DNA of 63,874 nucleotides, the filler included, from Kipferlia bialata (Eukaryota), in assembly GCA_003568945.1 (NCBI GenBank). It is 6 parts of 6 records of this genome, joined end to end, with 100 filler letters (N's around TTAATTAATTAA, not from the genome) between each part and the next. Parts side by side here need not be neighbours in the genome. Positions count along the whole stretch, not along the records: positions 10,680 to 21,250 come from BDIP01001404.1; 5 more parts are not named here. One strand, given 5' to 3'. This document shows, piece after piece, positions 10,784 to 13,700 of the stretch. Under the pieces are notes generated by a model. The model made no database searches, had not been told where the DNA came from, and worked only from the letters and a program-made list of their open reading frames with translations. The translations under genes and the position numbers were made by a program. The stretch's first letter is position 1; every line of letters starts with the position of its first letter.

Positions 10784-13700
10784 GAAGTCCCTCCACGCCC
10801 TGTCCTTCCTCACTGGTAGGGAGCTGGAGGACCTGGTGCACCACCCTCGGGCAAGGTATCACCTCTCTCTCTGTGTCTCTCTCTCTCAACCCTTTCTCAT
10901 CCCCCCCCCCCATTCCACCTAATGCACTCTCTCTGCAATACTCATTATATTCACCCCAGAGCATAACCTCTTAATATATCTCTGGCTAAATCTTCTAATG
11001 TCCCTCTAGAGCCCGATGTATGTCTCTCTCTCTCTGTCTTCTCTCTACCCCATCTCTCTCTCTCTCCTTCTATCTACTTACCCCAGGGCATGCATGGACC
11101 TGTGCCTAGATGAGTACATGTACATATCTCTCTCTCTCTCTCGGTATATATAGTATCCACTATGTGTACATTCTTACCCCAGGGCCTGTATGGACCTGTG
11201 CCTGGATGAGTGTGTCACTGGTGCCACAGAGGCAGACATAGTGTCAGGAGCGGTGGCAGCATACTGTACGTATATTGTATAAAGTACTGATAGAGAGTAT
11301 TCAGTAATGTGTAAACACATGTGCATACGTTTGTGACAGGGGCAACACAGGCAGACATAGTGTCAGGGGTTGCACCATACTGTGTATGTGTATTAACAAC
11401 AGGACCGTGAATACCATATGCATATATTTACAAAGTGTTCCCCTCCCCAACCCCAGTGCAGGTGTCCTTCCTCTATCCATTGATGAATAGGGGATTCAGT
11501 TATTATCAGTTACAGTCATTTACTATATATGTGTCCCCCTATAACCCCAGTACAGGTCTCCTTCCTCTCCCTGCCCCAGACAAGGGTGCTGGCACTGCTA
11601 AACGCATTCCTCAGGGCTAAGGTACCGTTGTAGCATGTATTATTGTTCTTAGTGACAGTTTGTCAGAAGGACTAGACCTTGTTATTTCTCTTTCCTTGTC
11701 TTGTTCATTTGTCTTCCCGACTCCCAGCCACACACCCCTGCCTCCCCCCCTTTTCGTTTGTATATCCTATCTGAGTTTGTATTGTACATATGTAAACTAT
11801 TCGTCACTGCCTCTAATCTTCAGCCCCGCCCCCCTGTGTCCCCCCTCTACATTGTTGGTATACCTATCAGCTTGTGTTTCATCTTCATCTTGAACAATGC
11901 ATTACCTCTCACCACTAGCCCCGCCCCCCTGCCTCCCCCCTGTACATTGCAATGTCTTTGTCACATACCATTATATTTCATCCATCACCTCTACTTACCT
12001 TACTGCTACTTACTGCCAGCCACGCCCCCCTGCCTCCCCCCTGTACATTGTTGTGAGACACCTACTGCTCCTATTGGACAGGGGGACAGTGCTGGAGGGA
12101 GGGGCAGACACCGTGTCCTTTCTGGTAGAAGCTCTGTACGTGCATTGTATATAGTATATATATAGTGGTATATATATATAGTGGCTATGTGTCAGTGACA
12201 GTGCTGGAGGGAGGGGCAGACACGGTGTCATTTCTAGTGGAGGCACTGTACGTAGGAAACGTGTATATAGTATATCTATCTATATGTATATATATATATA
12301 TATATGTGTGTGGATAGATAGTATGTCATATACTGCTGGATGGAGGGGCAGACACGGTATCCTTTTTAGTAGAGGCATTGTACGTGCATTGTCTATACAA
12401 ATATGTGTGTATATACATGCATAGCATGTACTGCTGGAGGGAGGGGCAGAGATGGTGTCATTCCTAGTGGAGGCACTGTACGTATCTATAGTTGTGTTAG
12501 AGTATTCGTATTCATGTATGTGTCTTCCCTGCTTTGTGTATGTTCCTCTGACTTGCTGACCACCTCCTCTGTCGACTGTCTCTCTCCCCCTCTCGGTTAT
12601 CTATACTTACCCTATATTAGAGTCTTACTTCAGCACCACCCCCTCTGGTAAGTGTGCCTGTCTGTCTCTCTCTCCCTCTCTCTCTATTTCTATATATATA
12701 CTTACTAATCCCCTAGGCTAGAATCTAGCTTTAGCACCACCCCCTCTGGCGAGTGTGCCTGTCTGGCTGTGCTGGGTGAGATATGCACTCTGTCACCAGA
12801 GGCCAGGAGGGAGGCATACACACACCCTCACGGTGAGTGCANNNNNNNNNNNNNNNNNNNNNNNNNNNNNNNNNNNNNNNNNNNNNNNNNNNNNNNNNNT
12901 ATATATATATATATAGAGAGAGAGAGATGAGTGTACTCTGTCACCAGAGGCCAGAAGGGAGGCGTATACCCACCCACACGGTATGGATAGTATATGTATA
13001 TATTTGTTGACATTGAGAGAGAGAGATTCATATATGACAGTATAATACTAATAATACTGTGTATACTCACCCATAGGTCGTCAGCTCCTTGCCAAGGTTG
13101 CAGGTCAGATGGGTGACTACACCCTGCCTGTATTATGTGCATCCCTGCACTTCATGAGCCATGGGTCGAGGGAGGGGTCGCACTTCCATAGCATGTTACA
13201 CACTGAGGTATGTATATATATGTAGTATAAGTATTGTATATACTGTATTCATGAGCCATGGATCTAGGGAGGGATCACACTTCCACTCAATGCTGCATAC
13301 TGAGGTAAAAACATATATACTATATAAGTAGTGTATATACTCTATCCATTGATCCATGGGTCCAGGGAGGGGTCGCACTTCCACTCAATGCTGCATACAG
13401 AGGTATATATATATGTATGCAGTACTATGTGTGATATATATACTGTATACTTCATGAGCCATGGGTCGAGGGAGGGGTCGCACTTCCATAGCATGTTACA
13501 TACTGAGGTATATGGTGTGATTACCTGAATATTACATATTTTTTGTCATGTGTTCATATGCATATTGTTTCCTCATCACCAGGAGAGTGTGGCCCTATGA
13601 CCCTCTCTCTCTCTCTCTGTAGTTCTTTAGTGAATCATTGTGATACATGTTACATGTATTCAATATATAGCTTATCCTTAGGAGAGTGTGGCCAGACTGG

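What the first reader, a model, noticed from the sequence alone, without database searches (positions are those of the whole stretch)
13151..13507. Echoes are synonymously recoded: 11 nt changes, 0 amino-acid changes, including a Ser AGC/TCA switch
Seen: true exon tail 13151-13207 (FMSHGSREGSHFHSMLHTE|GT) vs echo 13248-13304 differs by ggg>gga, tcg>tct, ggg>gga, tcg>tca, cat>cac, agc>tca, tta>ctg, cac>cat. All are synonymous. The most distal echo (13451-13507) is nearly identical to the true exon. Established: neutrally decaying copies accumulate mostly nonsynonymous changes. Inference: echoes are, or recently were, under protein-level selection. Options are (i) exchange with the true exon by unequal crossover or gene conversion, (ii) direct-repeat-guided DNA deletion or non-canonical RNA processing that places them in mRNA, or (iii) snapshots of a rapidly synonymously evolving exon.
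Basis: partly seen in the sequence, partly recalled or inferred. Interest (0 to 1): 0.92.

Follow-up and report, generated by a model that had tools for sequence, protein, structure and literature searches.

The report
Intron echoes that store coding alleles
In the protist Kipferlia, many introns hold short copies of the neighbouring exon ends that are left out of the assembled mRNA yet differ from it mostly by silent changes, most likely because they are working versions from other individuals moved into the intron by slipped recombination, which would make one genome a record of its population's diversity and of sex.

Summary
Confirmed and general. The window is Kipferlia bialata DNA. Exon 6 of KIPB_005807 ends in copy 1; three echoes follow in the intron. 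Copy 1 vs 2: 11 nt, 0 amino acids. DNA contigs confirm a single-copy array; the one RNA contig splices all echoes out. Across 7 genes, 168 echoes give dN/dS 0.12, echo-echo 0.21. Copying plus neutral decay inside one lineage gave 0.43-0.62 in simulations; misaligned recombination between divergent haplotypes gave 0.14-0.17 with the observed divergences. Silent differences keep exon-like GC, replacement differences are AT-biased, and echoes next to the exon have fewer replacements but as many silent changes. Best reading (0.6): echoes are recently working exon ends of other alleles, implying outcrossing and very high silent diversity (about 0.25-0.3). Not shown: no second strain was found. The repeat type is known (human F7 intron 7 minisatellite), and this scan noted boundary copies with a weaker silent bias in two other genomes; I found no paper describing this constraint or these Kipferlia arrays.

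The parts
10785..21095 (+). Host gene KIPB_005807 (partial, 740 aa, 22 exons; no Pfam family above cut-off, no homolog found)
   Evidence: RNA contig lengths fit the model
13077..13207 (+). Exon 6, spliced into the mRNA
   Evidence: 0 other letters in the RNA contig
13151..13207 (+). Copy 1: the working exon tail, followed by the used donor GT at 13208
   Evidence: joint skips 474 nt, GT..AG
13208..13247 (+). Spacer 1 (intron head, TA-rich)
   Evidence: homologous to the flanks of copies 2 and 3 (z 2.8 and 2.0), not detectably to that of copy 4 (z 0.5)
13248..13306 (+). Copy 2: echo, 11 nt and 0 aa from copy 1, with unused GT
13346..13404 (+). Copy 3: echo, 16 of 19 residues kept (13355-13402), junction end decayed, with unused GT
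13450..13509 (+). Copy 4: echo, 1 silent change from copy 1, with unused GT and an unrelated-looking downstream flank
   Evidence: a 52-nt DNA contig at double depth (900) marks the stretch shared with copy 1
13581..13594 (+). Short acceptor-side echo of exon 7 (AG plus the first 12 nt); below the score threshold of my scan
   Evidence: read from the sequence
13682..13744 (+). Exon 7, joined to copy 1 in the RNA contig
21351..42573 (+). Two further contigs whose genes carry the same echoes (KIPB_005808: 52 echoes; a hand-modelled 33-exon gene: 41)
53326..63874 (.). Contig with three hand-modelled genes or gene parts on both strands carrying 30 echoes

Best explanation
The echoes are tandem copies of exon-intron boundaries that the assembled mRNA skips, and they are most likely working exon ends from other, very divergent alleles, moved into intron positions by misaligned recombination between homologues and refreshed before they decay much. 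Shown: the units are real, single-copy, intronic, keep their splice signals, and differ from the exon about eight times less at replacement than at silent sites. Inferred steps: (1) an array starts by duplication across a splice site in a TA-rich intron and is tolerated because the first donor and the last acceptor are used; (2) when two divergent haplotypes pair, the exon-derived part is the best-matching sequence, so unit k of one pairs with the working unit of the other; (3) crossing-over or long conversion puts that working end into an echo slot, while the reverse move is purged if it brings a damaging change; (4) silent distance therefore reflects allele diversity (fitted about 0.25) and replacement distance reflects the short stay in the intron (fitted about 0.05). 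It needs outcrossing, silent diversity at these exon ends of about 0.25-0.3, and exchange about 1000-3000 times the point mutation rate per array. No function for the echoes is required.
For: dN/dS 0.122 over 168 echoes (Sd 467.8/S 1430, Nd 223.2/N 4414); 0.121 in the two annotated genes and 0.122 in the five hand-modelled ones; bootstrap with one echo per array 0.093-0.162. It is a protein-level pattern: third-position replacement transversions 12/1438 vs silent 160/1950; holds for each base. Echo-echo 96/1359 at 0-fold vs 110/392 at 4-fold sites. Two regimes: 0-fold differences GC-to-AT 85 vs 26, 4-fold 108 vs 101 (P=1e-5), echo GC4 561/974 vs exon 568/974 while introns are 38% GC. Proximal vs distal echoes in 36 arrays: silent codons 97 vs 84, replacements 26 vs 50 (P=0.006). 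Model with allele distance plus decay AIC 964.3 vs one-clock model 974.0. Simulations: 7 of 7 within-lineage settings gave 0.43-0.62; between-individual settings with theta 0.2 gave pS 0.30, pN 0.05, 0.14 (conversion, r/mu 1000) and proximal 0.31/0.051, distal 0.33/0.082, 0.17 (crossover, r/mu 3000). Exon part and flank are uncoupled (copy 4: 56/57 identical, flank z 0.5). No paralog or homeolog as a source: none in the DNA contigs at 80% likeness, none among proteins. K. bialata has four Dmc1 entries, Spo11 and Hap2, and no Rad51A (PMC8516963 supplement rows); Dmc1 stabilises mismatched joints (PMC6719624 abstract); in a hypervariable fungus crossovers fall preferentially in exons (PMC4209137 passages).
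Against: No second strain was found, so no echo allele has been seen as a working exon. The diversity needed is at or above the highest reported (0.20 within, about 0.34 between populations of Schizophyllum commune; PMC9187340 passage); with theta 0.05 the simulations reach only pS 0.13-0.18 and dN/dS 0.28-0.34 at high exchange. Of 12 between-individual settings only 3 came to 0.17 or below (0.08, 0.14, 0.17); the model was tuned after the data, with small scaled populations. The crossover simulation predicts more decay at the junction end, but donor echoes show the opposite slope (0-fold 0.052 to 0.025, 4-fold 0.55 to 0.18 away from the GT), so a local mutation gradient must be added. No four-gamete conflict in 12 arrays with 3 or more echoes (few informative sites), so short patchwork conversion is not shown. 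The private-change test is not decisive: ratio 0.31 (22/1099 vs 20/315) if the most distant echo is dropped, no signal (48/1081 vs 9/312) if the most silent one is dropped. Sex has not been observed in metamonads (PMC8516963 section 10).
Confidence: 0.6

Rival explanations
1. Selection in place: echoes are occasionally used (a jump between matching positions at RNA level, or a non-inherited DNA deletion), and in a huge population even rare use keeps them coding-compatible.
For: Splice signals are intact (GT 67 of 71, AG 75 of 79, branch motif 67 of 75); proximal echoes are cleaner; arrays are tree-like. Contigs drop rare forms, so use below a few percent is invisible.
Against: One RNA contig lies on 13040-13790 at 80% likeness and it skips all echoes; RNA depth in six echo-rich bins equals what the exon pieces alone give (my arithmetic). 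4-fold sites show no drift to AT (108:101 against 0.66 expected, P=2e-5), although weak use should not hold codon GC. Offsets are not in frame (41 of 142 are multiples of 3). Using an echo donor or acceptor by ordinary splicing would insert intron sequence, not swap the tail. No known mechanism (my knowledge).
Confidence: 0.12
2. Fast exon, slow echo: echoes are snapshots of the exon, and the exon line changes silently 6-8 times faster than the echoes decay (for example by error-prone transcript-templated repair).
For: Tree-like arrays; exon-private 4-fold changes 29/239 are as frequent as echo-private 57/551 and fit such a ladder arithmetically; a weak positive link between silent and 0-fold distance (rho 0.19, P=0.02); the conservative private-change test shows no signal. 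Transcript templates are mentioned for recombination in general in PMC8516963 section 8.
Against: One clock predicts a constant silent/replacement ratio, rejected between proximal and distal echoes (P=0.006) and by AIC (difference 9.7). Transition shares are the same at 0-fold and 4-fold sites (65/163, 124/304). The intronic spacers of the same units are close to saturation, not slow. Silent change peaks next to the donor, where mRNA-templated conversion should be weakest (inference).
Confidence: 0.12
3. Past hybrid or polyploid state: the divergent working copies were homeologues inside one cell line, were captured as echoes, and the second genome set has since been lost or homogenised. Same capture mechanism, no standing hyperdiversity.
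For: Explains a roughly common silent distance (dispersion only 1.35) without record diversity.
Against: No second copy of exon 6 in the DNA contigs at 80% likeness, long bubble-free contigs at even depth 380-480. Three-state codons (TCG/TCT/TCC) and private changes in several echoes of one array call for more than two sources. Residence times look spread like an ongoing process (gamma shape 1.4).
Confidence: 0.12
4. Ordinary decay or artefact: dead boundary duplications whose silent bias comes only from selection on the working exon, or haplotypes misassembled in tandem.
For: This explanation sufficed for similar copies in two other genomes according to earlier scan notes (not checked by me). 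Some echoes are plainly decaying (3 stop codons among 107 single-base replacements).
Against: It predicts about 0.5 or more (0.43-0.62 simulated) against 0.09-0.16 observed. A 308-nt DNA contig spans 13171-13478 with 0 differences at depth 455, like its neighbours (441, 481); that run may be the source of the assembly, so it checks the assembly, not the biology. Detection false positives 3 of 448.
Confidence: 0.03

Closest known systems
Human F7 intron 7 37-bp VNTR and other minisatellites whose first unit spans an exon-intron boundary (PMC1557585, abstract seen)
   Same: Head-to-tail units, first unit holds the real donor, later units carry silent pseudo-donors; the most upstream site is used.
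   Different: In F7 the pseudo-sites are identical in sequence and the case is a single locus. Here units are about 104 bp, lie at both donor and acceptor ends, occur in 70 of 90 introns of the 7 genes examined, are about 33% diverged at silent sites and about 5% at replacement sites.
Crossing-over in the hypervariable fungus Schizophyllum commune (PMC4209137 and PMC9187340, passages seen)
   Same: Recombination between very divergent haplotypes seeded in exons, silent diversity of 0.13-0.20.
   Different: No intronic exon copies are reported in the passages I saw; diversity there is measured, here it is only inferred from one genome.
Silent-cassette gene conversion (Borrelia vls, Neisseria pilS, trypanosome VSG; recalled, not looked up)
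   Same: Unexpressed partial copies beside or apart from an expressed gene that look coding-constrained.
   Different: Cassettes store amino-acid diversity and donate one way; here amino acids are conserved, genes of several kinds are affected, and the exon has its own private silent changes (29/239).
Tandem exon duplication with mutually exclusive splicing, and intron gain by tandem duplication (recalled, not looked up)
   Same: Tandem copies of coding sequence with splice signals; purifying selection on copies in the first case.
   Different: Echoes hold only one end of an exon and one splice site, and are not in the mRNA contig.

Membership tests
Boundary-spanning minisatellite (F7 IVS7 type) | Head-to-tail units including exon and intron parts | tested here: met
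   TRF period 97, 3.6 copies, 77% matches; flanks homologous but much diverged (mean z 0.74 and 1.35)
Boundary-spanning minisatellite (F7 IVS7 type) | First unit holds the authentic donor; later pseudo-sites normally silent | tested here: met
   RNA contig joins copy 1 to exon 7; contigs cannot show rare use
Boundary-spanning minisatellite (F7 IVS7 type) | Pseudo-sites and units nearly identical in sequence | tested here: not met
   pooled silent difference 0.327, spacers near saturation
Boundary-spanning minisatellite (F7 IVS7 type) | Copy number varies between individuals | not testable with these tools
   only one sample holds this DNA; no relative in metagenomes
Mutually exclusive tandem exons | Each copy is a whole exon with acceptor and donor | tested here: not met
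   echoes cover one end only, 21-59 nt for the middle 90%
Mutually exclusive tandem exons | Copies appear in spliced mRNA | tested here: not met
   (one RNA run, contigs only, depth 29)
Silent-cassette gene conversion systems | Copies store amino-acid variation and donate one way to the expressed locus | tested here: not met
   amino acids conserved; exon-private 4-fold changes 29/239 as common as echo-private 57/551
Collapsed paralog or homeolog (assembly artefact) | A second full copy of the exon elsewhere, or abnormal depth across the array | tested here: not met
   no other letters at 80% likeness, depth 455 vs 441-481; one protein hit only

The most novel reading that the evidence does not exclude
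Kipferlia carries, at a large share of its TA-rich introns, a genome-wide archive of recently working alleles from other individuals, so that one homozygous genome reveals ongoing sex and silent diversity at or above the eukaryotic record in a group where sex has never been seen. A bolder variant not excluded (about 0.12): the echoes are occasionally read into protein by an undescribed repeat-guided jump.
Probability: 0.55. Interest if true: 0.88.

Novelty: new variant of a known kind. Interest (0 to 1): 0.8.

Why it matters
Intronic sequence that is spliced out should not obey the genetic code, yet here it does, across every echo-rich gene examined. If capture is right, a single assembly gives a population sample: allele diversity, the rate of ectopic recombination and evidence of outcrossing in metamonads, where sex is inferred only from gene lists (PMC8516963 section 10). 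The arrays are also a natural splice-site choice experiment: intact decoy donors and acceptors are ignored in favour of the shortest exon, which points to exon definition in a deep-branching eukaryote (inference). Practically, such echoes can mislead gene prediction (my own simple gene finder called 15 extra or shifted exons in one gene and 28 in the other, many on echoes) and they inflate intron length (median 323 vs 131.5 nt).

Tried and rejected
No whole genome is held for this window, so the count is limited to the window. Run search: no RNA holder listed; two runs of one sample, one guessed to be RNA. Absence of RNA cover on echoes comes from contigs and cannot exclude rare use. Metagenome scans for relatives of P0001 (57 pattern matches, 0 confirmed) and for a degenerate exon-6 motif (0) found nothing. 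Protein search for the contig at 32016-42573 found no annotated product (4 candidates, 0 hits), so that gene is hand-modelled. Pfam on 5 single exons (0 of 5) and PDB on 2 (0 of 2) named nothing. A codon-blind triplet effect of Dmc1 was rejected: third-position replacements are as rare as second-position ones. Base composition and transition bias were rejected. Alignment trimming does not create the slope (simulated 0.337, 0.338, 0.349). The first simulation (9 settings, 0.39-0.80, one run lost its arrays) had too little effective exchange and did not reach the observed value in any setting; it was rerun with higher rates. The within-array test (50 vs 48) is biased by choosing on silent counts and is not relied on. 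In-frame retention of a unit was rejected (offsets mod 3: 41, 48, 53). Second-order selection by inherited exchange inside one clone fails because it homogenises as fast as it exposes. Rows dropped: low-complexity hits (number not recorded) before the 168; 18 of 168 not anchored at a splice site before the 150; codons not fully aligned.

Full report
1. Observation. The four copies at 13151-13207, 13248-13304, 13346-13402 and 13451-13507 all end at a GT. Copies 1 and 2 differ at 11 nt in 8 codons and at no residue; copy 4 differs from copy 1 at one silent site; copy 3 keeps 16 of 19 residues and is decayed only at its junction end. In the other five frames copies 1 and 2 differ at 3-9 residues. 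Only 29 of 171 single-base changes in this tail are silent; the 10 minimal codon changes over codons 4-19 of the four copies are all silent, P about 4e-6 even when the exon side is allowed only silent change.

2. Where it lies. The exon translates to part of NCBI protein KIPB_005807 of Kipferlia bialata, a free-living fornicate; the next contig holds KIPB_005808. The protein maps onto 22 exons with GT-AG introns; copy 1 ends exon 6 (13077-13207), copies 2-4 lie in the 474-nt intron 6. The protein has no Pfam family above cut-off (3 weak matches) and no relative among 1.84 billion representatives. The window is six contigs joined by linkers.

3. Is it real, and is it in the mRNA? Two public runs of one sample hold the stretch. 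In X1 (DNA, possibly the source of the assembly) a 308-nt contig spans 13171-13478 with no difference at depth 455, beside contigs at 481 and 441, and a 52-nt contig at depth 900 marks the part shared by copies 1 and 4; no other letters are listed at 80% likeness, so no paralog or homeolog of exon 6 is seen. In X2 (RNA by guess; its contig is spliced) one contig covers 13076-13205 with no difference, including the base that tells copy 1 from copy 4, and joins to exon 7 across GT..AG. Its record coordinates match the summed exon lengths of the annotated model (my arithmetic). Contigs drop rare forms, so rare use of echoes is not excluded.

4. It is a general feature. I aligned every exon of 7 genes (2 annotated, 5 modelled by hand from a small gene finder and checked for open frames and GT-AG ends) to its flanking introns. 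168 echoes passed (90 acceptor-side, 78 donor-side; false positives 3 of 448 foreign pairs); 150 are anchored at a splice site, in 101 arrays and 70 of 90 introns. These genes were chosen because they show echoes; a 29-exon gene with short TA-poor introns has 0 in 28 introns. Pooled Sd 467.8 of 1430 and Nd 223.2 of 4414 give dN/dS 0.122; annotated and hand-modelled genes give 0.121 and 0.122; one echo per array, bootstrapped, 0.093-0.162. The deficit holds for each base and between echoes (96/1359 vs 110/392). Third-position replacements are as rare as second-position changes (12/1438 vs 28/3388 for transversions) while silent transversions are ten times commoner (160/1950), so the filter is the genetic code, not triplet position. 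Replacements are mildly conservative (mean BLOSUM62 -0.17 vs -0.65, P=0.005).

5. The right null. A copy that decays neutrally beside a constrained exon gives about 0.5, not 1. Simulated arrays exchanging only within one lineage gave 0.43-0.62 in 7 of 7 settings (0.72-0.73 in the first, low-exchange run). So the echo lineages spent most of their separate history as working coding sequence, or are selected in place, or the exon mutates much faster than they do.

6. Telling these apart. (a) 0-fold differences run GC-to-AT 85 vs 26, as expected for decay in introns of 38% GC; 4-fold differences are balanced, 108 vs 101, and echo GC4 equals exon GC4. Echo silent sites therefore did not sit long in an intronic regime. 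(b) In 36 arrays, the echo next to the exon has as many silent codon differences as the farthest one (97 vs 84) but half the replacements (26 vs 50; P=0.006). One clock cannot give this. (c) A model with allele distance plus decay (0.246 and 0.048) beats a one-clock model by 9.7 AIC units. (d) Spacers are homologous but nearly saturated and uncoupled from the exon part: copy 4 is 56/57 identical with flank z 0.5, copy 2 has 11 changes with flank z 2.8. (e) Exchange between individuals with theta 0.2 reproduced pS, pN, their ratio and the proximal-distal difference; the echoes also raise diversity at the exon by acting as a reservoir (simulated pi 0.27-0.29). Against: only 3 of 12 such settings reached 0.17 or less; the predicted slope of decay along the echo is opposite to the observed one in donor echoes; 12 arrays with 3 or more echoes show no four-gamete conflict; the private-change test gives 0.31 or no signal depending on which echo is dropped.

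7. Mechanism proposed. Shown: anatomy, exclusion from the RNA contig, code-level constraint, association with TA-rich introns (0.128 vs 0.056). Inferred: arrays start by duplication across a splice site and survive because the shortest exon is chosen; in crosses between divergent haplotypes the exon-derived parts mispair; working ends move into echo slots freely and damaged ends are purged when they move into the exon. Background that fits: K. bialata has four Dmc1 entries, Spo11, Hap2 and Msh3, and no Rad51A (PMC8516963, supplement rows); metamonads lack NHEJ proteins (section 8); sex has not been observed but meiotic genes are kept, and a relative is predicted haploid (section 10); Dmc1 residues stabilise mismatched joints (PMC6719624, abstract); crossovers in Schizophyllum commune favour exons (PMC4209137, passages), a species with pi 0.20 and 0.13 and dS about 0.34 between populations (PMC9187340, passages). 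None of this tests the mechanism in Kipferlia. Confidence 0.6; rivals: use in place 0.12, fast exon 0.12, past hybrid 0.12, plain decay or artefact 0.03.

8. What is known. The repeat type matches the human F7 intron 7 minisatellite, whose first unit spans the boundary and whose later pseudo-donors stay silent (PMC1557585, abstract; lead from earlier scan note e1-9861148). It differs in unit divergence, in occurring at acceptors too, in prevalence and in the code-level constraint. Earlier scan notes report boundary copies in two other genomes with a silent bias that plain decay explained (43 of 107 silent in one; their data not checked); here 468 of 691 differences are silent. The K. bialata genome paper reports 124,912 introns and, in the passages, methods section and supplements I searched, does not mention such duplications ('duplicat' 0 hits in the main text; 'intron', 'repeat', 'tandem' 0 in 3 supplements). 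Searches for Kipferlia with intron, exon, tandem or repeat terms and for the general pattern listed nothing describing it; I saw only listings there, and subscription journals are not covered. Cassette systems, mutually exclusive exons and intron gain by duplication are compared from memory.

9. Verdict. Observation confirmed and much wider than reported; first reading partly supported; a new variant of a known repeat kind with an unexplained-by-default constraint. Interest 0.8. The decisive test is to sequence other isolates and look for echo haplotypes in the exon position.

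Noticed in passing
window 10580-10679, 21251-21350, 31916-32015, 42574-42673, 53226-53325: The window is six contigs of about 10.5 kb joined by identical N-linker-N spacers; neighbours across a linker are not genomic neighbours.
   Followed up: yes
all 150 anchored echoes: Unit period is narrow: median 104 bp, 5-95% 78-151. Unexplained.
   Followed up: partly
donor-side echoes, window-wide: 4-fold divergence falls from 0.55 next to the GT to 0.18 at the far end, 0-fold from 0.052 to 0.025; not a trimming effect. 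Suggests a mutation hot zone beside donors.
   Followed up: partly
window 11085-21095: Decoy splice signals are intact, yet the RNA contig uses the first donor and last acceptor, giving the shortest exon: a hint of exon definition.
   Followed up: partly
window 44378-49460 (- strand): A predicted 29-exon gene with short, TA-poor introns (median 73.5 nt) has 0 echoes in 28 introns; echo-bearing introns are richer in TATA/ATAT words (0.128 vs 0.056, P=1e-8).
   Followed up: yes
window-wide echoes: Transitions are only about 40% of differences, and 19 of 71 codons with 2-3 differences are silent (AGC/TCA, AGG/CGT, TCA/AGT types).
   Followed up: partly
window 59727-60330 (- strand): An exon with a GGNHE motif, which I recall from lariat debranching enzymes, has five acceptor echoes; a PDB search with the exon found nothing, so the name is untested.
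   Followed up: partly
window 53604-55787: Gene that I recall as resembling CNOT9/Rcd1 has the most constrained echoes (dN/dS 0.045, 11 echoes); name untested (blank).
   Followed up: partly
window 9166-10060 (- strand): 150-bp exon-plus-intron repeats encoding leucine-rich-repeat-like units; the gene finder read 9607-9840 through an intron position, possibly a lost donor.
   Followed up: no
window 969-3014 and 3920-6184: Two tandem paralogous genes with similar exon layout and ordinary introns.
   Followed up: no
window 10358-10440: 10-bp tandem repeat, 8.3 copies, upstream of the leucine-rich-repeat-like gene.
   Followed up: no
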